From the NCBI GenBank assembly GCA_045530875.1, contig JAZSCY010000265.1, positions 1 to 36,729 of the forward strand: DNA of 36,729 nt, written 5' to 3'. Positions 1 to 36,729 of this stretch are shown in pieces. Under the pieces are notes generated by a model. It worked only from the letters and a program-made list of their open reading frames with translations. It was not told the DNA's origin and made no database searches. How positions within the stretch are numbered: position 1 is the stretch's first letter; each line of letters begins with the position of its first letter. This DNA is from Eubacteriales bacterium. GTDB taxonomy: Bacteria > Bacillota > Clostridia > Oscillospirales > CAG-272. Both the position numbers and the translations under genes were made by a program.

Positions 1-312
1 AGCCGTCACCCCAGCCGTAACCCGAGCCGTAACCCGAGCCGGAACCCGAGCCGGAACCCGAGCCGGAACCCGAGCCGGAACCCGAGCCGGAACCCCGGCC
101 GTCACCCGAGCCGTCACCCCGGCCGTCACCCGAGCCGTCACCCGAGCCGTAACCCGAGCCGTCACCCCAGCCGTAACCCGAGCCGTAACCCGAGCCGGAA
201 CCCGAGCCGGAACCCGAGCCGGAACCCGAGCCGGAACCCGAGCCGGAACCCCGGCCGTCACCCGAGCCGTCACCCCGGCCGTCACCCGAGCCGTAACCCC
301 GGCCGTCACCGA
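1..312. repeat. Nested tandem repeat: 12-nt basic unit (ccgagccggaac and variants) arranged as two 156-nt higher-order copies (1-156, 157-312)
   Basis: Read directly. The string agccgtcaccccagccgtaacccgagccgtaacccgagccggaac at 1-46 recurs at 157-202, and each copy continues with a run of ccgagccggaac units. Confidence 0.95.
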
Positions 313-316
313 TCAT
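1..316 (-). CDS. 5' part of a (Gly-X)n dipeptide-repeat protein, ATG at 316-314, running off the window start (partial; probably continues at 36729)
   Basis: Minus-strand translation gives MIGDGRGYGSGDGRGDGSGDGR(GS)10GYGSGYGWGDGSGYGSGDGSGDGRGDGSGDGR(GS)10GYGSGYGWGDG with no stop. Gly codons alternate ggc/ggt and are invariant, and all unit-to-unit differences fall in the X codons. The start lies 23 nt after the stop of the upstream gene. The RBS is weak. Confidence 0.5.
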   Translation of the reverse strand, partial: MIGDGRGYGSGDGRGDGSGDGRGSGSGSGSGSGSGSGSGSGSGYGSGYGWGDGSGYGSGDGSGDGRGDGSGDGRGSGSGSGSGSGSGSGSGSGSGYGSGYGWGDG

Positions 317-339
317 CAAAAACGCCCTGATTTTCTCGC

Positions 340-630
340 TCAGTTTCGCTTCCACTCTTTTACCTCCCTGATGCTTTCGACAGCCTTGTCCGTACACGGA
401 ATAATCTGGATCGGCTCCATCACAGACATTTCCGGCACAGTAACGGTAAACTGACATCCGCTTGGTTCGGTCGTCCCGTCCATTGCGAGCTGTTCCACAG
501 CGCAGGCGCCAGCCCAGTGCCACAGCTTCCGCACATCCTCCATGACAACTTCCTTGTCGCTTCTTTCCCGGATCCGTCCAAAGAACACGCCGGCATTTGC
601 ACATCTTACGATATAGTATTTGTTATCCAT
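340..630 (-). CDS. Hypothetical early protein (96 aa)
   Basis: ATG at 630 preceded by AAAGGAG. Packed within the early operon. No family recognised. Confidence 0.7.
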   Translation of the reverse strand: MDNKYYIVRCANAGVFFGRIRERSDKEVVMEDVRKLWHWAGACAVEQLAMDGTTEPSGCQFTVTVPEMSVMEPIQIIPCTDKAVESIREVKEWKRN

Positions 631-7994: not shown

Positions 7995-9374
7995 ATGATA
8001 AAAACATGGCTTGTTGTAGTTGCATATCTCCTTTTTTGGCCGTTTATTCTACCTTATCATTTTGGATACAAAAAAGCAAAAAAAGAAAGCAACGCATCTG
8101 ATCATTCCGAAGAAATAAGATCGTATAAAGAAAAAATCCGGGAGCTGGAAGCAAAAAATAAAGCCCTCAAATCCTCCGCTCCTGCAGTATCTAAAAAAGA
8201 AGTTACCGATACGGATCTGGAAAAGAAAATTGCCGCACTGCAAAAAAAACTGCATAATATGCAGGAACTATACAAAGCAGTGGAATATGCGCTTCAGAAC
8301 AGCGAGTTTCTTTCTCCGGAATTATCCAAACAATATGAAGAACTCTGTCCTACGGTAATCCTTCATCTGCATTCCATGGATTCCAAAAGCCTGCAGCAGG
8401 AATTCCGTTTGAATGATAAACAGATACAAGAAACCGTTGCACAATTTGAATCCAGATACAGCACAAAAACAATAGCTGCTATCTACAAATTGATGGCTAT
8501 AGCAATGCGAGCGGAATTGCAGAATATCCTGTATGCCCTGAAGTACGAAAAACTGGACAATGCAATCTCATCTGTCCGTGAGATGACGGCCAAGTATTAC
8601 GCCATCGCCATTGAAGGGAACCAGACCATCGCCGGGACACTCAAAGAGTACATATCCAAGATAGAATATCTATTTATAAACGCAGTAAAGATCGAATACA
8701 ACTACTACGTGAAGCGGGAACAGGCCAAAGCTGAACAGGCAGCTCTCCGGGAACAGATGCGCATCGAAGCCGCTGAGCGGAAAAAGCTGGAAGAAGAACA
8801 GAAGAAAATCGAAAAGGAAGAATCCAAGTATAAGGCCGAAATTGATAAGATCAGAGAATCACTCCAGACTGCCGCAGATGCCGAACGTAAAAAGATGGAA
8901 GCACGGATCGCAGAACTGCAAAACCAGCTTGCCGAAGTTGCTGTCAAGAAGGAAGAGATCATCCATCTGCAGAACGGAAAAGCCGGAACCGTGTACATCA
9001 TCAGCAATCTGGGTGCTTTCGGCGAAAACGTATTCAAGATCGGCATGACCCGCCGTCAGGAGCCTCAGGATCGTGTGGACGAGCTGGGCGACGCCAGTGT
9101 GCCGTTCCGATTTGACGTACACAGCTTTATTTTCTCCGAAGACGCTGTAGGTTTGGAAACTGAACTGCATCACATACTGAATGAAAAGCGTGTAAACAAG
9201 GTGAATCTCCGGAAGGAGTTCTTCAATGTCACCATAGAGGAGTTGCAGGAACTTGTGTATAAACTGGATCCCACTGCATCCTTCACCACCACTATGGCAG
9301 CAGAAGAATACCGACAGTCTATGTCCGGTCAGATCTATACAAGTGATTTTGTGAGCATAACAGAAGATGAATAA
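7995..9374 (+). CDS. Membrane-anchored coiled-coil protein with DUF4041-like middle region and a C-terminal T5orf172/GIY-YIG-like nuclease domain; candidate anti-phage defence or superinfection exclusion
   Basis: The N-terminal TM is WLVVVAYLLFWPFILPY. Long Lys/Glu coiled coils follow. The C-terminus GTVYIISNLGAFGENVFKIGMTRRQEPQDRVDELGDASVPFRFDVHSFIFSEDAVGLETELHHIL...RKEFFNV is the T5orf172 signature. The gene is visibly more AT-rich than the phage backbone. Confidence 0.75.
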   Translation: MIKTWLVVVAYLLFWPFILPYHFGYKKAKKESNASDHSEEIRSYKEKIRELEAKNKALKSSAPAVSKKEVTDTDLEKKIAALQKKLHNMQELYKAVEYALQNSEFLSPELSKQYEELCPTVILHLHSMDSKSLQQEFRLNDKQIQETVAQFESRYSTKTIAAIYKLMAIAMRAELQNILYALKYEKLDNAISSVREMTAKYYAIAIEGNQTIAGTLKEYISKIEYLFINAVKIEYNYYVKREQAKAEQAALREQMRIEAAERKKLEEEQKKIEKEESKYKAEIDKIRESLQTAADAERKKMEARIAELQNQLAEVAVKKEEIIHLQNGKAGTVYIISNLGAFGENVFKIGMTRRQEPQDRVDELGDASVPFRFDVHSFIFSEDAVGLETELHHILNEKRVNKVNLRKEFFNVTIEELQELVYKLDPTASFTTTMAAEEYRQSMSGQIYTSDFVSITEDE

Positions 9375-9379
9375 CAAAC

Positions 9380-9407
9380 AAGGCAGGATCCCGCAAGACC
9401 CTGCCTT
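9380..9407 (+). terminator. Hairpin after 7995-9374 (weak terminator or attenuator before the integrase gene)
   Basis: AAGGCAGG (9380-9387) pairs with CCTGCCTT (9400-9407), followed by a short T tract. Confidence 0.35.
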
Positions 9408-9426
9408 TCCTTATAGGAGGTGCCCA

Positions 9427-10473
9427 ATGAGAAACCCAAACGGATGGGGATCCGTCCACAAACTCCCCGGAAACAGGCGCCGGCCATGGCGTGCCCGAAT
9501 CACCTCCGGATGGACTGCGGACGAAAGCGGAAAGGTCCGGCAGCAGTATAAAACTATCGGATGGTATGCCACCCGCGAGGAAGCGATGACCGCCCTTGCG
9601 GAATACAATGCCAACCCTTATGAGCTGGACGACGCAATCACCTTTGCAGAGCTGTACGACAAGTGGTCGGGCGAGAAATTCCCCACCATCAGCAAATCAA
9701 ACGTCAGCGGATACAAAGCCAGCTATAAGGTCTGCGGCGCGCTGTACAACATGAAATTTGCCGAAATCCGCCGTTCGCACCTGCAGGGTGTCATCGACAG
9801 CTGCGGAAAAGAATACCCAACCATGCGGAAGATAAAGGTATTCTTCCGCCAGATCTTCGACTACGCCATCCAGAATGATTTGTGCACCACCAACTACGGC
9901 CAGTACGTCAACATCGCCCAGTACAAACCAAAGCCCGGAGAAAAAGAAGAAAAACACAAGCCTTTCTCCGACGCAGAAATCGAAACGCTGTGGGATAATA
10001 TCGCCCGGAATGAATACATCGGTATCATCCTCATCATGATATACAGCGGCATCCGGATCGGAGAGCTGTGCCAGATCCAAAAGGAGCACGTGCATCTGGA
10101 TGAACGGTATTTTGATATTCCCAGATTTAAAACCGACGCCGGTGCCCGGAAGGTCCCGATCGCAGAGAAGGTGGTTCCGCTGTGGACGCACTGGATGAGC
10201 CTGCCGGGAGAATATTTTCTGCAGAAGCCAACCGGAGGCGGCATGGAAACGAGCACATACCGCGATACCTATTTCACGGATATACTGGAGCAGATCGAAA
10301 TGGATCATCTCCCCCACGATACCCGGCACACGTGCATCACCCTGATGCAGAGAGCAGAGGTGCCCAAAACAATAATCCGCCGCATCGTAGGCCACGCCGA
10401 CCGAGACGTGACGGATCAGGTGTATACCCATTATGAGATAAATCAGCTCATAGATGCAATCAATAAAATATAG
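9427..10473 (+). CDS. int: Tyrosine integrase (phage integrase family)
   Basis: The N-terminal SAM-like part is followed by a catalytic region with IRIGEL (Arg), HDTRHTCITLM (H-x-x-R) and GHADRDVTDQVYTHY (His...Tyr). Start set at ATG 9427, after AGGAGG. Confidence 0.9.
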   Translation: MRNPNGWGSVHKLPGNRRRPWRARITSGWTADESGKVRQQYKTIGWYATREEAMTALAEYNANPYELDDAITFAELYDKWSGEKFPTISKSNVSGYKASYKVCGALYNMKFAEIRRSHLQGVIDSCGKEYPTMRKIKVFFRQIFDYAIQNDLCTTNYGQYVNIAQYKPKPGEKEEKHKPFSDAEIETLWDNIARNEYIGIILIMIYSGIRIGELCQIQKEHVHLDERYFDIPRFKTDAGARKVPIAEKVVPLWTHWMSLPGEYFLQKPTGGGMETSTYRDTYFTDILEQIEMDHLPHDTRHTCITLMQRAEVPKTIIRRIVGHADRDVTDQVYTHYEINQLIDAINKI

Positions 10474-10577: not shown

Positions 10578-10615
10578 AAAAACCACCCCATATGAGGTGG
10601 TTTTGTTCTTTTCTT
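10578..10615 (+). terminator. Strong intrinsic terminator after the integrase gene
   Basis: AAAACCACC-ccatatga-GGTGGTTTT followed by GTTCTTTTCTT. Confidence 0.7.
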
Positions 10616-10706
10616 CCGGTGTTTGTTTATCTCTTTGAGAAGTTTTCAACGGAAAATAACAGTGATTTCTCTATATCAAAGAAGATTTTGAGTATTACGT
10701 GAGTTT

Positions 10707-10736
10707 AAAAAAGAAGCCCCACTCTGGAGCTTCTTT
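10707..10736 (-). terminator. Intrinsic terminator ending the minus-strand cargo operon
   Basis: On the minus strand AAGAAGC...GCTTCTT (10711-10717 with 10729-10735) is followed by a T run (plus-strand A run 10707-10710), immediately after the stop at 10739. Confidence 0.5.
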
Positions 10737-10738
10737 CG

Positions 10739-11053
10739 CTACATCTCCCGCAGCCTGCGAAGTACCGCATCATACATCCTCGGAAGCAGTACCGCCGTAG
10801 CGTCCATCATCTCATCCATCAGCATCCACACCGCTGCCGGATCCTTTGCGAGCGCCAGCGTCAGAAACTCACTGTCTGCCGGTATGTCCGGCGGTGCGGC
10901 GTTGGATACTGCGGATATATCCGATGCAGAGCCACCCGGCAGGAGTGCACGAAGCTGCAGGAGGGTTGCTGTCTTGTGGGCCGTCTCAAAATTCTTCGGC
11001 GCCCCTTCCAGTTCCTCCAGCGCCTCGTCAATATCCTGCCGGGTTATCATCAT
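10739..11053 (-). CDS. Cargo operon gene 7: hypothetical protein (104 aa)
   Basis: ATGATG at 11053-11048 overlaps the upstream TGA. AAGGGGG RBS. No family recognised. Confidence 0.6.
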   Translation of the reverse strand: MMITRQDIDEALEELEGAPKNFETAHKTATLLQLRALLPGGSASDISAVSNAAPPDIPADSEFLTLALAKDPAAVWMLMDEMMDATAVLLPRMYDAVLRRLREM

Positions 11054-11460
11054 GCGGCCCCCTTGATCCGGTGTACGATGTCCTCGATCATGTCCCACTC
11101 GTCGTCATTAAACAGATTCCGCATCTGCTCAAGTTCTTTTACGATGCGCATCTTTTCTCCGTCGTCCCGGGAATACCGGCCACGGCTGTCTCTGCGCTGG
11201 CTGTATCCGCCATCGTTGTAGGAACGTCCATCATTGTAGGATCTGCCGCCCTGGTTGTAGTGAGGCATCATGCGGCCGTCACGGTCCACAGCTTGGCTGT
11301 AGCCTCCTTCTTCCTCCAGCATACAGATTTTGTCGATGTTCTTGATGGTGTCGGTCAGCATATGGATGGTGGTTACATCACCCATAGACAAATCGTCCTT
11401 TTTGTCAAATTCCTTCAGCTCCTTTTGGAGCTTTTCTTTCATTCGCTTAAGATGTTCCAT
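11050..11460 (-). CDS. Cargo operon gene 6: helical protein with a central Gly/Tyr/Ser/Arg/Asp low-complexity segment (136 aa)
   Basis: AAGGAGGA RBS. The central segment GGYSQAVDRDGRMMPHYNQGGRSYNDGRSYNDGGYSQRRDSRGRYSRDDG is flanked by charged helical ends. Confidence 0.65.
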   Translation of the reverse strand: MEHLKRMKEKLQKELKEFDKKDDLSMGDVTTIHMLTDTIKNIDKICMLEEEGGYSQAVDRDGRMMPHYNQGGRSYNDGRSYNDGGYSQRRDSRGRYSRDDGEKMRIVKELEQMRNLFNDDEWDMIEDIVHRIKGAA

Positions 11461-11470
11461 AGGTTCCTCC

Positions 11471-11881
11471 TTAAACTGTGAGAATAGCGTTCTGCATCTC
11501 GATGGGCGTGCCGGAATCGTTGCGAATGCCGATGGTCACCGAATCACCGAAGCACACGTCAACCAGATCGTTGATCGACACGTGCCAGAACTCCCCGGCC
11601 GCCGCAGGTGTCACAATGGCGGAGGACGCCGGCAGCGGAACACCGTCCAGCAGAAGGGAGATGGTGATCGGCCCAACCGTACCGCCGTCCGGAATGGCAA
11701 CATTGGCACCGAACATGATGTGATACTGGGTTTTGCGATTCCCGCAGACACCGGATAGGCGAATCACGCCCGTCTCTGTCTGGCTCACCGCACCGCAAAT
11801 ACAGCCGTACCGTGTGGGGTTCAGCAGTGCATTCCCGCCGTCCGCAATGGTCTGCAGGGCAGGATATGTGTATTTATCCAT
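11471..11881 (-). CDS. Cargo operon gene 5: small all-beta-looking protein (136 aa), possibly a jelly-roll/C1q-TNF-like fold
   Basis: AGGAGG RBS. It has alternating hydrophobic beta-strand patterns (YHIMFGANVAI, ITISLLLDG, FWHVSINDLVDV, VTIGIRN, MQNAILTV) and N-terminal cysteines (YGCICGAV, GVCGN). Confidence 0.65.
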   Translation of the reverse strand: MDKYTYPALQTIADGGNALLNPTRYGCICGAVSQTETGVIRLSGVCGNRKTQYHIMFGANVAIPDGGTVGPITISLLLDGVPLPASSAIVTPAAAGEFWHVSINDLVDVCFGDSVTIGIRNDSGTPIEMQNAILTV

Positions 11882-11955
11882 AGATTACCTCCTGTAATAA
11901 TGTGCGGCGAGACTGTTGCCCCGCCGCTTTTTGTTACCCCGTGGGGCTGATTGGT

Positions 11956-12852
11956 TTATGCAGATGCTCTGCAGTTGCAGTTGTTGCCCCAACCGCCGCC
12001 CCAGCCGCCGAACTGAGCCTGACCGCAGCAGTTAGTGGGAAAGCTTACCGTGGTGGGCGGCTGCACGATATAGGCAGCCTGCGGGCACTCAGCACCCAGA
12101 CGCCTCAGGAGAATGGCCTGAGATGCTTCGATGGTGGCCGCGATATACGCATTCTGCTTGAGGTTCTGGTTCTCGTTTTCGACGGCGCGGTACTTTTCGG
12201 CGAGCTGGTTGTACTCGATCTGGCCGAGCTTTTCCAGGATGGCACGAGTACCAGCGTTCTGGGAATCTACGATGTCCCGGGTGTTGTCGGATGCCTGGTG
12301 TCTGGTCTCACATGCCTGTACAGCCATATCATACCGGACACCGTCGATTGCCCTGCCGGTGCTGCAGCAACAGTCGCCGATCTGACGGGCGATTTCGTTG
12401 AAGCCCTGCTGGTTCTGATACCCTTGGGAGCAGATAGCATTTTCGATGCCGTTTACGCCGGTCAAAACAGCGGTGTTGACACCATTGAAGCCCTGGCAGA
12501 GCGTCTGCTGTACCCCGGCCTGTCCCAGCTTCAGATCGTTGATCCCGCCGAGAATGGCAGAATTGTTGAATCCGGCTGCCAGATCCGCCTGAGTAGCACA
12601 GCCACAGCCGCAGTCACGGCCGCCCCATCCGCCGAAACCGTTCATCATCATCCAGGGCCACATCATGCCCATACCTCCCATCATGCCGCCGAAGCCTCCC
12701 ATGCCCATGCCGCCCCAGCCGAACATGGAAGCCAGCAAGAACACAAGGATCCATTCGCCGAAGTTTCCACCCCAGCTTCCGCCGTTGCAGTTGCCGTTCC
12801 CGGTTACAGCGGCGATGTCAGCAGGGGTCATTTCGCTTGCAGTAAGAGACAT
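11956..12852 (-). CDS. Cargo operon gene 4: membrane-associated Gly/Met/Trp-rich, Cys-rich protein with a coiled-coil segment (298 aa)
   Basis: AGGAGGAA RBS. Hydrophobic WILVFLLASMFGW is followed by GGMGMGGFGGMMGGMGMMWPWMMMNGFGGWGG. It has about 15 Cys, including CGCGC, CCC, CC and CNC clusters. A heptad-like segment is ILEKLGQIEYNQLAEKYRAVENENQNLKQN. Confidence 0.7.
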   Translation of the reverse strand: MSLTASEMTPADIAAVTGNGNCNGGSWGGNFGEWILVFLLASMFGWGGMGMGGFGGMMGGMGMMWPWMMMNGFGGWGGRDCGCGCATQADLAAGFNNSAILGGINDLKLGQAGVQQTLCQGFNGVNTAVLTGVNGIENAICSQGYQNQQGFNEIARQIGDCCCSTGRAIDGVRYDMAVQACETRHQASDNTRDIVDSQNAGTRAILEKLGQIEYNQLAEKYRAVENENQNLKQNAYIAATIEASQAILLRRLGAECPQAAYIVQPPTTVSFPTNCCGQAQFGGWGGGWGNNCNCRASA

Positions 12853-12914
12853 ATAATATTCCTCCTATGGTTAGTTAAAAGTTTTATATCACAAACCGCG
12901 GCCGCAGTGTTGTG

Positions 12915-13142
12915 TCAGAAGTGGAACATATTCCGCAGGCCGGAAAACTGCGCCTCAAAACGCTTCGCCATTGCCTGCGCCATGTTGAGATGCTCCTGCG
13001 AAATCTGGCCGGAGCCAAGCATTTCCTGCAGAATCTGGTTGGGGTCTTTTCCCTGGTTTTTTTGCATAAACTGGATAAATCCATTCTGCATACCGCTGTT
13101 CACTTCCGCAGCGGTATAATTGGTTTTAGTGGAATTAGGCAT
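12915..13142 (-). CDS. Cargo operon gene 3: small Gln/Met-rich helical protein (75 aa)
   Basis: GGAGG RBS. 8-nt overlap with the upstream gene. Confidence 0.6.
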   Translation of the reverse strand: MPNSTKTNYTAAEVNSGMQNGFIQFMQKNQGKDPNQILQEMLGSGQISQEHLNMAQAMAKRFEAQFSGLRNMFHF

Positions 13143-13575
13143 TATTTACAACCTCCGTTTCTGCCGGAACTGCCGGTGCGGGAGTCTGTGCCGGCTGTGT
13201 AGGTGCCAGAAGTGCATTTATTGCCTGCAAAAACTCCTGCCTGGTCACATATTCCGGCTTCTGGTTCTGGTCCCGGACGGTGAAATCAAGAATCATCATC
13301 GGGAGCGGTCTGCCGGACACATCTGTCCGCTTGAAATAAATGGTATCCCTGCCGGAATCCCAGAGCACAGCCGAACTGTTCGCCGCAACAAGGAATGATC
13401 TGGCGGCTTCCTCTCCTTCAACCCATATACGGTCATCCCGCATGGGCGCCGCAGGCATCTGCCCGTATCCCTGCGCCGGCTGCTGACCAAAGTTCTGCGG
13501 AGCCTGCGCATACTGTTGCGGGTACCCGAATCCTCCGTTCGGCTGATATCCGCCGTAGTAGTTGTTCCAAGACAT
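13135..13575 (-). CDS. Cargo operon gene 2: protein with a Gln/Gly/Tyr/Pro-rich N-terminus, a globular core and a Pro/Ala/Thr/Gln tail (146 aa)
   Basis: AGGAGG RBS. The N-terminus is MSWNNYYGGYQPNGGFGYPQQYAQAPQNFGQQPAQGYGQMP. Confidence 0.7.
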   Translation of the reverse strand: MSWNNYYGGYQPNGGFGYPQQYAQAPQNFGQQPAQGYGQMPAAPMRDDRIWVEGEEAARSFLVAANSSAVLWDSGRDTIYFKRTDVSGRPLPMMILDFTVRDQNQKPEYVTRQEFLQAINALLAPTQPAQTPAPAVPAETEVVNNA

Positions 13576-13578
13576 AAC

Positions 13579-13962
13579 TCATTCCTCCTGTTTCGTCCAG
13601 TAGTAAATCACAACCGTGTCGCCGCTGTCCCACGTATCGAGCCAGGACCCATTTTCCACACAAACAACATGCTGGTGGGGACAAAGGACATACACCCCGG
13701 TGGGATGGTCCCGGCAGAAATCCCGCACCGTGTACCCGTCCCAGTCCTCGGGCACAATGTACCGGTGCCAGCCGTGCCGCCGGAGCACAGCCCCCCAGAC
13801 ATCGTCCGCGTCTGTTTCGTCGCACCGAATGGCCGCTTCCGCCACTTTGGCCGCAAAGGCTGTGTGCCAGTCATCGCCGCCGATGGCTTTGGCCAGCGCA
13901 CGGGTGGAGCAGTCCCCGACCCGCTTACCTCTGGGATTGGGGTTGTAGTATTTCCAGCCCAC
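13579..13962 (-). CDS. Cargo operon gene 1: putative papain-fold Cys-His protein (peptidase/amidase-like), about 127 aa
   Basis: The VGDCSTRALAKA motif (a candidate nucleophile Cys at the start of a helix) pairs with a later VLCPHQHVVCVENG...DTWD. Start chosen at GTG 13962, 8 nt after GGAGG. The ORF-track start at 13971 is itself part of that RBS. Confidence 0.5.
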   Translation of the reverse strand: MGWKYYNPNPRGKRVGDCSTRALAKAIGGDDWHTAFAAKVAEAAIRCDETDADDVWGAVLRRHGWHRYIVPEDWDGYTVRDFCRDHPTGVYVLCPHQHVVCVENGSWLDTWDSGDTVVIYYWTKQEE

Positions 13963-13988
13963 GGGAATCACCTCCGATTTCTGCCAAT

Positions 13989-14017
13989 ATTGTATAAAAA
14001 AAAGAGCCCTGCCTCAA
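13989..14017 (-). promoter_or_regulatory. Candidate promoter of the cargo operon: TTGAGG (14017-14012), 17-nt spacer, TACAAT (13994-13989)
   Basis: Read on the minus strand. The -35 lies in the loop and 3' arm of the upstream terminator hairpin. Confidence 0.3.
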
Positions 14018-14031
14018 TGAAGAGACAGGGC
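13994..14031 (-). terminator. Intrinsic terminator ending the late/lysis operon
   Basis: On the minus strand it reads GCCCTG-tctcttcattgagg-CAGGGC followed by TC and eight T. Confidence 0.65.
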
Positions 14032-14102
14032 AACTTTCGTGCAATATTCAATTATACTTGTATTAAAAGTTGTATTTAATGTAAGTATACGCCGCTTTTT
14101 TG

Positions 14103-14309
14103 TTATTTGGAGGCCGAAACAACACCAAAAAGTGTCTTTTGTGCGTTGTATACAATGTACTTGATGCCACGTACAGACATATCAAATTCTTCGGCCAAAG
14201 GTTCAAAACAAACACCGTCCACCAAACGTCGGATCAGTATCTTCCGATCCCGCTCCCGGTGGATTCGCTCGTTTATAAGATGTGTGATTTCAGAGTTGGT
14301 ATACTCCAT
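14103..14309 (-). CDS. Small HTH protein resembling sigma-70 region 4 / LuxR-type HTH (68 aa)
   Basis: ATG 14309 follows GGGAGAA. ...ILIRRLVDGVCFEPLAEEFDMSVRGIKYIVYNAQKTL is a region-4-like HTH. Confidence 0.55.
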   Translation of the reverse strand: MEYTNSEITHLINERIHRERDRKILIRRLVDGVCFEPLAEEFDMSVRGIKYIVYNAQKTLFGVVSASK

Positions 14310-14357
14310 ACAGTTCTCCCAAAGGAAGGACGTGACCGGATACACATCCGCTTCCGG

Positions 14358-14582
14358 TTATCCCTCTGTTTGCGCTTCTGTGACTTCCGCTTCTGTCGTC
14401 TCTGTCTGGTGGTCATGCATGGCCCAGCTTAGATTGGATAAAACAAGAGCAGTGAGCAGCAGCAGGCAGGCAGCCAGCAGACGACAGTTGACCCGCTCCA
14501 TGCGGAACATCTCTGCTTCGTGTACATAAAACGGGACGTTCGCCGGAGTGCGGTTGTCATGGCAGCTTTGACAGTCGGGCAT
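14358..14582 (-). CDS. Single-pass membrane protein of the lysis cassette (74 aa)
   Basis: GGAGG RBS. The TM segment is LLAACLLLLTALVLSNL. The N-terminus has CQSC. Confidence 0.6.
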   Translation of the reverse strand: MPDCQSCHDNRTPANVPFYVHEAEMFRMERVNCRLLAACLLLLTALVLSNLSWAMHDHQTETTEAEVTEAQTEG

Positions 14583-15094: not shown

Positions 15095-15308
15095 GATCCT
15101 GCATCTCCTTTTCGTGTTCGTGATGTTGTTTGGTTTCAAATACACGGATAGCCCCGGCGGCCACAGATTCCACACCCACAGCCGCAGAGATACCCATGAC
15201 AAGGGAGGACGGTTCGTTTCCGGTGATGATCCAGACGACCAGACAGACCGCGAAGAACGCGCCCATATAAAGATAGATCGACAGCAAAAGCCGCTTCATC
15301 CATCTCAT
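15030..15308 (-). CDS. Putative holin/antiholin-like membrane protein (92 aa, 2 TM)
   Basis: ATG 15308 forms an ATGA overlap with the endolysin stop. LLLSIYLYMGAFFAVCLVVWII and LVMGISAAVGVESVAAGAI are hydrophobic. The His/Cys/Glu-rich tail overlaps the next gene by 65 nt. Confidence 0.55.
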   Translation of the reverse strand: MRWMKRLLLSIYLYMGAFFAVCLVVWIITGNEPSSLVMGISAAVGVESVAAGAIRVFETKQHHEHEKEMQDHGQKCCECEDENKLGGKIDEP

Positions 15309-15850
15309 CGCATTGCCTCCCAGAGTTTCCGCCACAGATCCGGCGCATATTTGTACTTGTCCAGATACGCCTTCGTCTGCGCTTCCAGCCCGGCTTTTCG
15401 GCAGACCTTCTCCGCATCCGTCAGCACCTCATGGGAGCCGATCCGGTTGGGGATGCCCAGCGCCATGGTGGGATCAACGGCCCCCCCGTCCGGCCTCCGT
15501 ACCTCAAAATGCAGGTGAGAGCCGGTGGATTTGCCTGTTTTACCCTCAATCCCGATGGTGTCACCGATTTTCACACGATCGCCGGCGCGAACAGAACGCG
15601 CTGCGAGATGGCAGTAGTACGACAATGTACCGTCGTCCGACTGAACGCAGACATAATTGCCCCATTCCCACGTCCGGTTATTGGTGTCCGTTATGATCCG
15701 CGAGAATAAAACACGACCCGGCAGCACCGCCACAACGGTTTTGTCCGACCCCACGAGGTCAATGCCTTTGTGATATTCGGTTATCCCCTTCATCGTGCGC
15801 GTGCCGAAAGCCGAAGTCACCCGGACGGTACCGGTTTTATACGGCAGCAT
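15305..15850 (-). CDS. M23-family peptidoglycan endopeptidase (endolysin)
   Basis: HKGIDL ... GNYVCVQSDDGTLSYYCHL ... GKTGKSTGSHLHFEV are the M23 (LytM) zinc-binding motifs. ATG 15850 follows GGGAGGTGA. Confidence 0.85.
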   Translation of the reverse strand: MLPYKTGTVRVTSAFGTRTMKGITEYHKGIDLVGSDKTVVAVLPGRVLFSRIITDTNNRTWEWGNYVCVQSDDGTLSYYCHLAARSVRAGDRVKIGDTIGIEGKTGKSTGSHLHFEVRRPDGGAVDPTMALGIPNRIGSHEVLTDAEKVCRKAGLEAQTKAYLDKYKYAPDLWRKLWEAMR

Positions 15851-16097
15851 TCCGATCACCTCCCGCCGGCACAAAACAGCCGCAGCCGTCATCATACCTA
15901 TATCCGTCCGGTGTCCCGGGCCGGATAAACCGCTCATCTCCGTCTACGGTTTCATCGTATCCCCATCCGGGATGCACAAAATCCGGTGCCTCCGCAAAAA
16001 CACAGTACGGATATTCCCGCTCTGCCGCTGCCGCTGAGGCAAACCGCTCCGACACATCTTCATGGCAGAACCTGCCCTTAATCAAAAACACCTTCAC
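15837..16097 (-). CDS. Small protein between fibre and endolysin (86 aa)
   Basis: GTG 16097 forms a GTGA overlap with the fibre stop and follows GGGAGGTGG. Confidence 0.5.
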   Translation of the reverse strand: MKVFLIKGRFCHEDVSERFASAAAAEREYPYCVFAEAPDFVHPGWGYDETVDGDERFIRPGTPDGYRYDDGCGCFVPAGGDRNAAV

Positions 16098-35513: not shown

Positions 35514-35701
35514 TTCTTCCCACCCCGATAAAACGTCTGCCATACCCGCCCGAACCACAGCCGCCAGCGGTAGCAGGTGCAGGCGTCGCCGTTTCCCTCG
35601 ATCATGGTCTTGCACCGGACACAGGGATAATCCGGCCATATGTCCGCCACGGAGTCCCCGCCATGGGAACCACGCAGCAGATCAATCATTTGCTGATCCA
35701 T
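35510..35701 (-). CDS. Small Cys-containing protein (63 aa)
   Basis: ATG 35701 follows GGAGGG. Contains CVRC...C.C. Confidence 0.5.
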   Translation of the reverse strand: MDQQMIDLLRGSHGGDSVADIWPDYPCVRCKTMIEGNGDACTCYRWRLWFGRVWQTFYRGGKK

Positions 35702-36113
35702 ACAGTCCCTCCAGCCTCTCAAAGGCTCGTTTTTTATAGTTTTTGATAGACGAAACGGACAGATCCAGCATATCCGCCGCATCCTCCAGCCGTTTTTTGT
35801 CGAAGAACAGCACCCGGAGCACCGCCTTTTCGTCCGCCGCCAGAACCGTCATCATCTTCTCCAGCGCCGCCCGTTCCGTTTTTTCCGACTCGATCATCCG
35901 GGACACATCCGACTGCAGTTCATCTATTATAGCCGAGGACCGCCCCACCGGATCCCCTGGAACGCCCTTTCCCGTGGGCATACCGTCCAGAGAAGGTGCA
36001 GATGGAGACTTTGCAGAAGCATCCAACTCAACAAGCCGGTCAATCTGCCGGTCAATGTCCCGCGACAGATCCATATACGCATCAAACCGCCGCCTGATCC
36101 TGCCTGTCTCCAT
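35682..36113 (-). CDS. Sigma-70 region-4-like phage transcriptional regulator (candidate late activator, 143 aa)
   Basis: The C-terminus EKAVLRVLFFDKKRLEDAADMLDLSVSSIKNYKKRAFERL is a region-4-type HTH. AAGGAGGAG RBS. Lies upstream of the packaging genes. Confidence 0.6.
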   Translation of the reverse strand: METGRIRRRFDAYMDLSRDIDRQIDRLVELDASAKSPSAPSLDGMPTGKGVPGDPVGRSSAIIDELQSDVSRMIESEKTERAALEKMMTVLAADEKAVLRVLFFDKKRLEDAADMLDLSVSSIKNYKKRAFERLEGLYGSAND

Positions 36114-36131: not shown

Positions 36132-36729
36132 TTATTCCAAAAGCCTCATGATTACGCGTCCGCCGTAGCTTCCGCCGCAGATTTTCACAAATTCTTCCAC
36201 GGTATACGTGTCGTTTTCCAGGTCAATACCGTGATCCGCTGCAAAGGTTTTTCGACCCATCTCACAGCTCCCGGTAAGTCGGTGGTGCCAGGCGAAGAAA
36301 TCAGCCGCCGGATACTTCACGCCCCGTTCATGGCATCTCCAGAACGATGCAATCCGCTCATCCTCCGGCATATCGTCAAACAGCTTATCCTCTGCCGCCT
36401 GTACAGCCTCTGCCAGTGTCTTCCCGTGAGCAAACACATCCCCGCGCTTGACGATGTAGCACGACTGCAGCGTCAGATCCTTGTTGAGTATATAGCCTTT
36501 TGCCGTGTTGCCAAACACAGCCCGTATAATAGTTTGTATCTCATCAACCATATATACAGTATCCCCGCAAAAGCTGGTGATTCCCCAGCCGGAACCCCAG
36601 CCGTAACCCCAGCCGTCACCCCAGCCGTAACCCGAGCCGTAACCCGAGCCGGAACCCGGGCCGGAACCCGAGCCGGGACCCGAGCCGGAACCCGGGCCGG
36701 AACCCCGGCCGGCACCCGGGCCGTCACCC
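36132..36729 (-). CDS. 3' part of the (Gly-X)n repeat protein: repeat tail plus a 139-aa globular C-terminal domain (5'-partial at the window end)
   Basis: The frame of the ORF-track ORF 36132-36551 stays open upstream to the window end. It reads ...GDGPGAGRGSGPGSGSGPGSGSGPGSGSGYGSGYGWGDGWGYGWGSGWGITSFCGDTVY-MVDEIQ... There is no good RBS before ATG 36551. Confidence 0.55.
   Translation of the reverse strand, partial: GDGPGAGRGSGPGSGSGPGSGSGPGSGSGYGSGYGWGDGWGYGWGSGWGITSFCGDTVYMVDEIQTIIRAVFGNTAKGYILNKDLTLQSCYIVKRGDVFAHGKTLAEAVQAAEDKLFDDMPEDERIASFWRCHERGVKYPAADFFAWHHRLTGSCEMGRKTFAADHGIDLENDTYTVEEFVKICGGSYGGRVIMRLLE
36582..36729. repeat. Third, diverged partial copy of the 156-nt higher-order repeat seen at 1-312
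   Basis: 36611-36729 aligns with 1-119 apart from a few a-to-g or t-to-g changes (cccgag to cccggg, ccggaac to ccgggac, ccgtcac to ccggcac). Confidence 0.9.

What the first reader, a model, noticed from the sequence alone, without database searches (positions are those of the whole stretch)
10707..14031. Terminator-insulated seven-gene cargo operon of unassignable low-complexity proteins between the lysis genes and attP/integrase
After a strong terminator (13994-14031) and before another (10707-10736), seven minus-strand genes are packed with strong GGAGG RBSs and stop-start overlaps. In order they are:
- a Cys-His papain-like protein
- a Gln/Gly/Tyr-rich protein
- a 75-aa Gln/Met-rich helix protein
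- a 298-aa Gly/Met/Trp/Cys-rich membrane protein
- a small all-beta protein
- a protein with a GGYSQ/RSYNDG repeat core
- a 104-aa protein

This is the position of lysogenic-conversion (moron) genes, with a candidate promoter of its own. I recognise no defence, toxin, virulence or metabolic family here. The compositions (Tyr/Gly/Gln-rich, Cys-rich, jelly-roll-like) recall spore coat, exosporium or cell-surface matrix proteins of Firmicutes. Met/Cys richness could instead indicate metal binding. All of these readings are hypotheses.
Basis: partly seen in the sequence, partly recalled or inferred. Interest (0 to 1): 0.8.

Follow-up and report, generated by a model that had tools for sequence, protein, structure and literature searches.

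The report
Conserved unknown seven-gene phage module
The seven genes are real and form a separately transcribed block that recurs in the same order in many gut-bacterial phages, built around a cysteine-rich membrane protein found in tailed viruses of very different hosts, but no database says what it does.

Summary
Seven co-directional minus-strand genes (10739-13971) lie between two strong intrinsic terminators, downstream of an M23-peptidase lysis cassette and facing the integrase. None matches Pfam, NCBIfam or PADLOC; five match PHROGs of unknown function.

It is a conserved module, not a chance set of cargo genes. In 92 sequences carrying the 298-aa protein g4, the neighbours recur in fixed order: g2 in 85, g1 in 68, g6 in 63, g3 in 61, and g5 or an alternative Cys-rich beta protein in 88. 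A small sigma-70-region-4-like protein (up80, 14103-14345) travels with the block.

The upstream terminator hairpin covaries across 17 loci and carries the -35 box of a conserved promoter, preceded by 11-bp phased repeats.

Structure prediction gives g5 a BclA/BxpB (TNF/C1q-like) jelly roll and g1 a minimal papain-like Cys-His-Asp fold.

A spore-coat or purely lysogenic-conversion reading is unlikely as the general function. The module occurs in phages reported as virulent, including one on Butyrivibrio fibrisolvens. g4 relatives occur in T1-like, T5-like and crAss-like phages and in viruses assigned to archaea.

My best guess, at low confidence, is a self-regulated complex on the cytoplasmic membrane that acts on the host envelope. 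Function remains unproven.

The parts
14358..14582 (-). up74a: 74-aa single-pass membrane protein (N-terminal CxxC, motif VP(Y/F)xVHE..M.R.ER, transmembrane segment, acidic tail). It sits immediately upstream of up80 in 27 of 92 sources and is a possible membrane-bound partner of up80.
14103..14345 (-). up80: 80-aa helix-turn-helix protein resembling sigma-70 region 4. It travels with the module in 58 of 92 sources and is always followed by the terminator/promoter element. Probable dedicated regulator.
   Evidence: weak sigma-70 matches, E 0.006-0.05; a homologue hits phrog_36, transcriptional regulator, 2.9e-9
14028..14080 (-). Phased direct repeats and A-tracts just upstream of the -35 box (AATACAA twice; TTGCAC at 14044-14039 and TTGCCC at 14033-14028, 11 bp apart). 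The last copy forms the 5' arm of the hairpin. Candidate binding sites for up80.
13996..14031 (-). Intrinsic terminator closing the upstream lysis/regulator transcript: 10-bp stem 14031-14006, conserved loop TTCATT, then TCTTTTTTTT.
   Evidence: -23.3 kcal/mol, z -6.9; 17 loci: 94% of cells paired, 10 of 12 pairs with compensatory changes, covariation 0.846 against 0.27 shuffled, 0 of 500 shuffles as high
13989..14017 (-). Module promoter embedded in the terminator: -35 TTGAGG (14017-14012, loop plus 3' arm), 17-nt spacer (3' arm plus T run), -10 TACAAT (13994-13989).
   Evidence: same geometry in at least 17 loci; T27, G29, T50, A51 and T55 invariant, T28 nearly invariant
13579..13971 (-). 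g1: 130-aa minimal papain-like protein; invariant D20-C21, H101 and D112.
   Evidence: phrog_3754, 2e-26; pLDDT 94; best fold matches Josephin-2, BpJOS, Tae4, SpeB; all weak
13135..13575 (-). g2: 146 aa. Gln/Gly/Tyr/Pro-rich low-complexity N-terminus, then a roughly 60-aa beta-rich domain, then a coiled-coil helix. The most constant partner of g4 (85 of 92 sources).
   Evidence: (phrog_21718)
12915..13142 (-). g3: 75-aa Gln/Met/Asn-rich helical protein (conserved GxDPxxxxxxxLxSGxxSQxQxN motif).
   Evidence: (phrog_22984, 2e-14)
11956..12852 (-). g4: 298-aa core protein. Acidic N-terminal tail, a short hydrophobic segment flanked by Gly-rich runs, a polar helical region with an invariant CCC (161-163) and conserved C141 and C181, a Pro-rich linker and a Cys-rich C-terminus.
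   Evidence: phrog_16490, 7e-50; 961 clusters at 50% identity
11904..11927 (-). Stable hairpin without a T run in the g4-g5 spacer. Possibly an mRNA processing or stability element.
   Evidence: whole 61-nt segment -25.8 kcal/mol, z -4.8
11471..11881 (-). g5: 136-aa stand-alone TNF/C1q-like jelly roll, closest to BclA C-terminal domain and BxpB/ExsFA. In 28 other loci this slot holds an alternative Cys-rich beta-rich protein of about 130 aa.
   Evidence: phrog_20016; pLDDT 88
11050..11460 (-). g6: 136 aa. N- and C-terminal helices flank a Gly/Arg/Asp/Tyr/Ser-rich low-complexity core (GGYSQ, RSYNDG, RRDSRGRYSRDDG).
10739..11053 (-). g7: 104-aa helical protein (conserved SEFL...DELM......PR.YD.V motif). 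Detected in 31 of 92 sources.
10703..10737 (-). Intrinsic terminator closing the module.
   Evidence: -17.6 kcal/mol, z -3.7

Best explanation
Shown: this is an autonomous accessory module of tailed phages, not a structural or lysis operon of any known family. It has two parts.

1. Regulatory part. A sigma-70-region-4-like DNA-binding protein (up80), often paired with a small membrane protein (up74a), is followed by a composite element. A covarying terminator hairpin ends upstream transcription, and its loop and 3' arm supply the -35 box of the module's own promoter. 11-bp phased repeats lie just upstream.

2. Effector part (g2-g7, with g1 attached in varying positions). It is built around g4, a single-pass membrane protein.

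Inferred:
- g4 inserts with its short acidic tail outside and its Cys-rich helical domain in the cytoplasm.
- None of the seven proteins shows an N-terminal secretion signal on inspection, so the others would assemble on g4 at the inner face of the membrane. They are g2 (low-complexity region, beta domain, coiled coil), g3, the g5 jelly roll (TNF-fold proteins are usually trimers), g6 and g7.
- g1 would process or modify a component.
- up80 binds the repeats and switches the promoter, possibly released from up74a by a membrane signal.

Most likely role, at low confidence: to change the infected or lysogenic cell's membrane or envelope in the phage's favour. Examples are blocking DNA entry by superinfecting or progeny phage, or otherwise controlling membrane events late in infection.
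For: Fixed gene order across 92 g4-containing sequences at only 25-55% identity, and across different phage backbones and genome positions.

The terminator/promoter element is conserved with strong covariation.

The repeat sequence tracks the first residues of the up80 recognition helix: SVR with TTGCAC, SVQ with ATACAG, SVPH with ATACGA, EPRQVGR with TGACCT.

In Dulem virus 35, up74a and up80 move with the module although no lysis cassette precedes them.

g4 has a conserved hydrophobic segment, an acidic N-flank (mean 3.5 Asp/Glu against 1.0 Lys/Arg) and about 12 Cys per protein.

None of the seven sequences has a recognisable signal peptide (by eye).

Across unrelated phage families, g4 genes sit after tail-fibre, receptor-binding or lysis genes. 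In the T1-like and T5-like examples examined, a terminator hairpin and a promoter-like spacer precede the gene. Known exclusion genes (cor, llp, HK97 gp15) and conversion genes (lambda bor) occupy such positions; the gene names are from my own knowledge.

There is no match to virion, lysis or defence families. The g4-like gene of a crAss-like phage and its two downstream neighbours have no counterpart among solved structures by sequence.
Against: No homology to any known exclusion or envelope-modifying protein.

Seven proteins with low-complexity regions, a jelly roll and a peptidase-like enzyme are far more than known exclusion systems need.

Known exclusion proteins are usually lineage-specific, whereas g4 spans viruses of monoderm, diderm and archaeal hosts.

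If up80 is an activator made from the late lysis transcript, expression would come very late. That fits lysis or egress better than exclusion.

Topology, assembly, up80 binding and timing are all inferred. The repeat-to-helix correlation rests on about ten loci.
Confidence: 0.3

Rival explanations
1. Lysis or egress accessory. up80, made at the end of the lysis transcript, activates the module very late. g4, with a Gly-rich hydrophobic segment, two polar helical regions and a Cys-rich loop between them, then destabilises or remodels the cytoplasmic membrane at or after holin triggering. The other proteins assist.
For: The block follows the lysis cassette in the window, in Ceridwen, in most Clostridia prophages and in crAss-like cr116_1. 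The repeats lie upstream of a -35 box that departs from consensus, which is where activators usually bind. A crAss-like g4 relative shows weak similarity to coronavirus spike HR1 helices, and GenBank annotators called such genes 'spike protein/glycoprotein'.
Against: A terminator separates the block from the lysis genes. In T1-like and T5-like phages g4 is not near the lysis genes. In Dulem virus 35 the block sits among head genes, and in L018/L019 it is convergent with the lysis cassette. The HR1 similarity is not significant (E 0.09-0.3).
Confidence: 0.2
2. Virion-associated accessory. The proteins form fibres, decoration or ejection components: the g5 trimer as a binding head, g4 and g2 coiled coils as stalks, and the g4 hydrophobic segment as a membrane-inserting element.
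For: TNF/C1q-like jelly rolls are common heads of phage fibres. The block lies directly after tail-fibre genes in L044, T1-like and T5-like phages and just upstream of capsid genes in Dulem virus 35 and cr116_1. It occurs in virulent phages. The ribosome-binding sites are strong.
Against: The block has its own insulated promoter instead of belonging to the structural operon. There is no PHROG structural annotation and no sequence match to any solved virion protein. Low-complexity regions and a membrane segment are unusual for virion proteins.
Confidence: 0.15
3. First reader's reading. Lysogenic-conversion cargo encodes self-assembling, cross-linkable matrix proteins like those of spore coat or exosporium. 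In a broader form, the coat-like matrix would be laid down in the infected cell.
For: g5 is closest in fold to BclA-CTD, F-BclA and BxpB/ExsFA. Compositions are rich in Cys, Gly, Tyr and Gln. g1 has a Cys-His-Asp papain-like fold of the kind also used by transglutaminases (from my own knowledge). No protein has a signal peptide (by eye), as is also true of coat proteins. The block is an insulated unit next to the integrase.
Against: The module is present in a virulent Butyrivibrio phage and in phages or prophages assigned to Bacteroidota; g4 occurs in enterobacterial phages and in viruses assigned to archaea. There are no Pfam hits to coat, exosporium or BclA_C families. In 28 loci g5 is replaced by a protein with no detectable homology to it. 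GC content is not foreign.
Confidence: 0.12
4. No joint function. The genes are independent small accessory genes (for example anti-defence genes) that stay together only through shared descent.
For: g1 homologues occur alone in the early regions of Geobacillus phage GBK2 and Bacillus Tsamsa-like phages, in Tsamsa three genes from an ocr-like anti-restriction gene. g4 occurs alone in enterobacterial phages. The position of g1 varies.
Against: The order g2-g3-g4-(g5 or alternative)-g6 persists at 25-50% identity. It persists across different lysis and tail modules and different genome positions, together with a dedicated regulator and promoter.
Confidence: 0.08

Closest known systems
Phage morons: autonomous promoter-gene-terminator units such as lambda bor and lom or HK97 gp15 (named from my own knowledge)
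   Same: The block is bounded by terminators and has its own sigma-A/sigma-70-type promoter. It sits at the end of the late region next to the integrase and appears at different places in different phages.
   Different: It has seven to nine genes with a dedicated regulator instead of one gene. Its GC content is not foreign. It is also present in virulent phages. Expression from the prophage is untested.
Bacillus exosporium proteins BclA C-terminal domain and BxpB/ExsFA (PDB 1wck, 8d02, 7r5i, 9h38)
   Same: g5 is predicted to adopt the same TNF/C1q-like jelly roll (Foldseek E 4e-6 to 3e-5, TM 0.57-0.69). Like BxpB it is a stand-alone protein of about 140 aa without a signal peptide.
   Different: Sequence identity is 13-20% with no Pfam or PDB sequence match. 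g5 has no collagen-like region. It is encoded by phages, including one whose host does not sporulate (to my knowledge). In 28 loci it is replaced by another protein.
Superinfection-exclusion membrane proteins encoded next to tail or receptor-binding genes (T1/phi80 Cor, T5 Llp, HK97 gp15, lactococcal Sie2009; from my own knowledge)
   Same: Similar genomic position, separate transcription and a membrane-anchored product.
   Different: No homology and no lipobox. g4 is larger, rich in Cys and predicted helix, and comes with six partner proteins. No exclusion phenotype has been tested.
Papain-like (clan CA) enzymes: Josephin deubiquitinases, Tae4 amidase, SpeB, C39 leader peptidases
   Same: g1 has the Cys (at the start of a helix), His, Asp order and spacing. 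The invariant Asp-Cys dipeptide and the 80-residue Cys-to-His distance resemble C39 domains (the C39 comparison is from my own knowledge).
   Different: The best fold match is weak (E 0.17, TM 0.42). There is no Pfam match, and no C39 structure appears among the top 50 fold hits listed. Substrate and reaction are unknown.
ECF sigma / anti-sigma pairs, and stand-alone region-4-type phage regulators (phrog_36)
   Same: A small region-4-like helix-turn-helix protein is encoded next to a single-pass membrane protein. Promoter-proximal repeats vary together with the recognition helix.
   Different: up80 lacks region 2, so it cannot be a sigma factor. up74a has no recognised anti-sigma domain. Binding has not been tested.

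Membership tests
Moron (autonomous transcription unit in a phage genome) | Own promoter and own terminator flanking the genes | tested here: met
   Terminators. Promoter geometry and hairpin conserved and covarying in 17 loci.
Moron (autonomous transcription unit in a phage genome) | Variable presence or position between otherwise adjacent phage genes | tested here: met
   The block lies after lysis genes, after tail fibres, between head genes or in an early region, depending on the phage.
Moron (autonomous transcription unit in a phage genome) | Nucleotide composition different from the surrounding phage | tested here: not met
   GC is 0.55-0.57 in 11-14 kb, within the range of the rest of the window.
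Moron (autonomous transcription unit in a phage genome) | Expressed from the repressed prophage | not testable with these tools
   Needs RNA-seq of lysogens.
BclA-CTD / BxpB (ExsFA) exosporium proteins | TNF/C1q-like jelly-roll fold | tested here: met
   AlphaFold2 pLDDT 87.9. The top 15 PDB fold matches are BclA, F-BclA, ExsF and BxpB.
BclA-CTD / BxpB (ExsFA) exosporium proteins | Detectable sequence membership (Pfam or PDB sequence profile) | tested here: not met
   No Pfam family at E <= 1. The profile finds no relevant PDB chain.
BclA-CTD / BxpB (ExsFA) exosporium proteins | Restricted to spore formers and located on spores | tested here: not met
   A g5 homologue is in Butyrivibrio phage Ceridwen; the host is non-sporulating to my knowledge. 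Localisation is not testable here.
Papain-like cysteine peptidases (clan CA, including C39) | Ordered Cys...His...Asp/Asn, with the Cys at the N-terminus of a helix packed against a beta sheet | tested here: met
   C21, H101 and D112 are invariant in 55 sequences. The model has helix 21-29 and strands 93-126.
Papain-like cysteine peptidases (clan CA, including C39) | Significant sequence or fold match to a family member | tested here: inconclusive
   Best Foldseek match is Josephin-2, E 0.17, TM 0.42. No Pfam or PDB sequence hit. One public record names a homologue 'putative papain-like endopeptidase'.
Known anti-phage defence systems (PADLOC) | Match to any component model | tested here: not met
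   No hits for ten proteins at E <= 1.
Virion structural or lysis proteins | Match to a PHROG, Pfam or solved structure of that category | tested here: not met
   The PHROGs matched are all 'unknown function'. There are no significant PDB sequence matches.
Superinfection-exclusion membrane proteins or lipoproteins | Membrane anchor or lipobox | tested here: inconclusive
   g4 has a conserved but short hydrophobic core (about 9-13 residues) flanked by Gly, and no lipobox.
Superinfection-exclusion membrane proteins or lipoproteins | Blocks infection by the same or related phages | not testable with these tools
   Needs plating assays on cells expressing the module.

The most novel reading that the evidence does not exclude
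g4 and its partners are a previously unrecognised, ancient machine of tailed viruses that works on the cytoplasmic membrane. g4 has a layout like a class-I fusion protein: a Gly-rich hydrophobic segment, a polar helical region, a Cys-rich loop and a second helical region. It would nucleate a cysteine-cross-linkable, low-complexity-rich assembly late in infection. That assembly could be a coat-like or condensate-like matrix, or a device that remodels the membrane. A dedicated region-4-like factor controls it. The core would be shared by phages of Firmicutes, Bacteroidota and Proteobacteria and by viruses assigned to archaea.
Probability: 0.15. Interest if true: 0.9.

Novelty: categorically new. 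Interest (0 to 1): 0.68.

Why it matters
The block takes about 9% of a 37-kb genome. Its core protein defines a family of about 960 clusters at 50% identity, with more than 6,800 clusters at 90% identity among the candidates scored. The family has no Pfam or NCBIfam model, its only PHROGs are labelled 'unknown function', and I found no literature on it. It occurs in phages of the dominant human and animal gut Clostridia. The core gene also reaches crAss-like, T1-like and T5-like phages and viruses assigned to archaea.

A function this widespread and this conserved in gene order is probably a general step of phage biology that has been missed. The T1-like and T5-like coliphage homologues, some of them in the BASEL collection, make the core gene directly testable in E. 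coli.

The composite terminator/promoter with phased repeats and a region-4-only regulator is a compact regulatory design of interest in its own right.

Tried and rejected
- Family searches for all seven proteins and their neighbours in Pfam, NCBIfam and PADLOC gave nothing. PHROGs gave only 'unknown function' families.
- Sequence and profile searches of the PDB for g1, g2, g4, g5, the alternative g5 and three proteins of a crAss-like locus gave nothing significant.
- Rfam has no family for the hairpin.
- The alternative protein in the g5 slot is not detectably homologous to g5 by profile-profile comparison (probability 0.7%).
- I suspected that the crAss-like locus holds g2-, g3-, g5- and g6-like genes, and that g3 is fused to g4 there. 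Profile searches support only g4 (E 4e-32), so I dropped that claim.
- I considered g1 as a C39 leader peptidase acting on a double-glycine-like N-terminus of g4, or as a transglutaminase cross-linking Gln-rich g2 and g3. The motifs are suggestive, but there is no family or fold support, and the Lys-rich tail of g2 is absent in the window. I kept these only as ideas.
- I considered the Met-rich stretch of g4 as a metal site. It is not conserved outside close relatives.
- Literature searches for the module, DUF7841, prophage exosporium genes, prion-like phage domains and the BASEL label 'putative sugar-binding protein' gave no functional information.
- No tRNA or attP was found.

Full report
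**1. What is there**

The minus strand between 14031 and 10707 carries seven ORFs: g1 13579-13971, g2 13135-13575, g3 12915-13142, g4 11956-12852, g5 11471-11881, g6 11050-11460 and g7 10739-11053. Six have GGAGG ribosome-binding sites. g2/g3 and g6/g7 overlap stop to start.

The block is bounded by two intrinsic terminators. The upstream stem is 14031-14006 plus a T run (-23.3 kcal/mol, z -6.9). The downstream stem is about 10737-10709 plus a T run (-17.6 kcal/mol, z -3.7).

Upstream lie an M23 peptidase (15305-15937) and small membrane ORFs that look like holins (by eye). Downstream, facing the block, lies a tyrosine integrase (9367-10473).

**2. No known family**

None of the seven proteins matches Pfam, NCBIfam or PADLOC at permissive thresholds. 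g1 to g5 match PHROGs 3754, 21718, 22984, 16490 and 20016, all labelled 'unknown function'. Sequence and profile searches of the PDB find nothing significant.

**3. Two folds**

With a 21-sequence alignment, g5 is predicted (pLDDT 87.9) as an all-beta jelly roll. Its best solved-structure matches are:
- BclA C-terminal domain (TM 0.57-0.64 across five entries)
- the F-BclA tip fibrillum
- ExsF
- BxpB/ExsFA (TM up to 0.69)

The TNF/C1q family follows. Among predicted viral structures, g5 matches many stand-alone proteins of about 135 aa from gut phages (TM up to 0.83) and the heads of collagen-like fibres.

g1 (pLDDT 94.2) has a nucleophile-helix-plus-sheet arrangement with invariant D20-C21, H101 and D112. 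Its fold matches are all papain-like (Josephin-2, BpJOS, Tae4, SpeB) but weak, the best at E 0.17 and TM 0.42. One public record calls a homologue 'putative papain-like endopeptidase'.

**4. A conserved module**

g4 has more than 6,800 relatives among the 90%-identity clusters scored, none with a functional name, many on contigs of 35-47 kb. It has 961 relatives among 50%-identity cluster representatives, nearly all 200-310 aa.

I collected 91 loci with a g4 relative from annotated phages, metagenome contigs and genomes. I then searched their ORFs iteratively. Counting the window, that gives 92 sources:

| Component | Sources with it (of 92) |
|---|---|
| g2 | 85 |
| g1 | 68 |
| g6 | 63 |
| g3 | 61 |
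| g5 | 60 |
| up80 | 58 |
| g7 | 31 |
| up74a | 27 |

Genes are always on the same strand as g4, except in two loci where the regulator genes are inverted. The recurrent orders are:
- up74a-up80 | g1-g2-g3-g4-g5-g6-(g7)
- g1-up74a-up80 | g2-...-g6
- (up80)-g2-g4-g5-(g6)-g1

In 28 loci that lack g5, the slot after g4 holds a different Cys-rich, beta-rich protein of about 130 aa. The slot is therefore filled in 88 of 92 sources. The two proteins are not detectably homologous.

Many loci are cut by contig ends, so these counts are lower bounds. Identities to the window are typically 25-55%.

The block occurs behind different endolysins (M23, CHAP, M23+GH25, glucosaminidase) and in different places:
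- between lysis genes and the integrase or prophage end
- after a tail-fibre gene
- between minor and major capsid genes in Dulem virus 35
- in the early region of Clostridium phage CPD1

That behaviour indicates a mobile functional unit.

**5. Its own regulation**

A terminator-like hairpin plus T run follows up80 in about 45 of 55 loci, whichever gene comes next. Seventeen hairpins align without gaps.

| Measure | Value |
|---|---|
| Cells paired | 94% |
| Pairs with compensatory changes | 10 of 12 |
| Covariation score | 0.846 |
| Same score after shuffling | 0.27 (0 of 500 shuffles as high) |
| Same score with partners slid | 0.11-0.14 |

The loop is conserved. Together with the 3' arm it supplies a TTGnnn -35 box. 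The 3' arm plus the T run form a 17-nt spacer, and a TAnnnT -10 box follows. In the window this reads TTGAGG, 17 nt, TACAAT at 14017-13989.

Upstream transcripts are therefore stopped, and the module starts from its own host-type promoter. This explains the conserved loop.

Immediately upstream are direct repeats with an 11-bp period and A-tracts, the last copy forming the 5' arm. The repeat sequence differs between loci and appears to track the first residues of the up80 recognition helix. This rests on about ten loci and is suggestive only.

up80 resembles sigma-70 region 4 (weak NCBIfam matches). A homologue matches phrog_36, a transcriptional regulator. up74a is a single-pass membrane protein.

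In Dulem virus 35, up74a and up80 accompany the module with no lysis cassette upstream. They therefore belong to the module. Whether up80 activates or represses is unknown. The position of the repeats, upstream of a non-consensus -35 box, favours activation.

**6. The spore and lysogen readings fail as the general function**

Butyrivibrio phage Ceridwen carries up74a, up80 and g1 to g7. It was seen only in the lytic cycle, and its authors judged it virulent and reported no integrase (PMC7372960). Its host does not sporulate, to my knowledge. C. perfringens phage CPD1 carries a variant.

g4 relatives (phrog_9288) occur in 175 phage records, nearly all of enterobacterial hosts. In the T1-like phages examined, the gene follows the tail-fibre gene (in KarlJaspers, the lateral tail fibre and its chaperone). 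In the T5-like Epseptimavirus it follows the tail genes and a 661-aa gene that I take to be the receptor-binding protein (from my own knowledge of T5). Each time the gene lies behind a terminator and a promoter-like spacer.

Relatives also occur in many crAss-like phages, in a cultured Bacteroides uniformis phage, and in viruses assigned to Methanomassiliicoccales. The block has the same GC content as the rest of the phage.

**7. Anatomy of the core**

g4 has these parts in order:
- an acidic N-terminal tail of about 30 aa
- a short, conserved hydrophobic core (WWIIILLLF-like) flanked by Gly-rich runs
- a polar, Asn/Gln-rich region of about 190 residues, presumably helical (no structure was predicted), with an invariant CCC and conserved flanking cysteines
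- a Pro-rich linker
- a Cys-rich end

The charge distribution suggests the tail is outside and the large domain inside the cell. This is inference. None of the other proteins shows a signal peptide on inspection.

g2 combines a Gln/Gly/Tyr/Pro-rich low-complexity region, a beta-rich domain of about 60 aa and a coiled-coil helix. g6 has a Gly/Arg/Asp/Tyr/Ser-rich core between helices. g3 and g7 are small helical proteins.

**8. Interpretation**

Firmly shown: this is a conserved, self-contained, separately transcribed accessory module with a dedicated regulator. Its core is a membrane protein family spread across tailed viruses.

Inferred: the products assemble at the inner face of the membrane.

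My preferred function, at confidence 0.3, is modification of the host membrane or envelope for the phage's benefit, such as exclusion of incoming phage DNA. The reasons are the gene position shared with known exclusion and conversion genes, the membrane anchor, the autonomous promoter and a possible membrane-coupled regulator.

Close rivals are:
- a very-late lysis or egress role
- a virion accessory
- no joint function

**9. Novelty**

Nothing in the family libraries, solved structures or searchable literature describes this module or g4. The only links to known biology are two generic folds. I rate it as lying outside known kinds of system. The caveat is that its function may turn out to be a known one (exclusion or lysis) carried out by new proteins.

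Noticed in passing
window 1-630 and 36132-36729 (minus strand): Both contig ends carry the same Gly/Ser/Tyr/Asp/Trp-rich 9-nt-periodic repeat (GSGSGSGYGSGYGWGDG...) in one reading frame. The contig is probably a circular phage genome that the assembler broke inside a repetitive gene. That gene would link an N-terminal part (start near 630) to a 139-aa C-terminal domain (36132-36551), which has no Pfam or PHROG match.
   Followed up: partly
window 7995-9374 (+): A 459-aa protein with a T5orf172/MUG113 (GIY-YIG-like) domain (phrog_1847) is encoded just upstream of, and overlapping, the integrase. It is possibly another accessory or defence gene.
   Followed up: no
window 35682-36113 (-): A second, longer sigma-like protein (143 aa; Pfam Sigma70_r4, 8e-7), distantly related to up80. 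It is probably the phage's late-gene activator.
   Followed up: no
window 10579-10604: A symmetric hairpin flanked by A and T runs, called as a terminator on both strands, lies between the integrase stop and the module terminator. The integrase and the module therefore each have their own stop signal. No attP or tRNA was identified.
   Followed up: partly
window 11904-11927 (-): A very stable GC-rich hairpin without a T run lies in the g4-g5 spacer. It might set different levels for the genes before and after it.
   Followed up: no
L014, L016, L032, L034, L002 and others, between the promoter and g1: In many related loci a short ORF of about 35-45 codons (for example MNITKFIKSHKELNELPFLVVFRTIQILREKGMIKGF) sits between the conserved promoter and g1. 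The window lacks it: the -10 box is 17 nt from the g1 start.
   Followed up: no
L003 5098-5748 (Clostridium phage CPD1); L006 5073-5624 (Dulem virus 33): Endonuclease genes are inserted between g3 and g4 of the module in two phages. The Dulem virus 33 gene is annotated 'endonuclease' and lies on the opposite strand. The CPD1 ORF looks like a homing endonuclease by eye.
   Followed up: no
L094 3303-3899 (Salmonella phage polluks): The g4-like gene of this T5-like phage is interrupted by an in-frame stop and annotated only in part. It may be a pseudogene or a sequencing error.
   Followed up: no
L096 4141-4488 and 6721-7116 (crAss-like cr116_1): Two small proteins flanking the g4-like gene carry HExxH motifs (HECLH, HEKNH). 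This could mean that metallopeptidase-like proteins take the place of the papain-like g1 there. I saw this by eye only; homology of the neighbours to the module was not supported.
   Followed up: partly
L044 (scaffold labelled Prevotella sp., 557 kb): A complete module variant lies in a very AT-rich region of a scaffold assigned to Prevotella. Either the module occurs in a Bacteroidota prophage or the scaffold or bin is chimeric.
   Followed up: no
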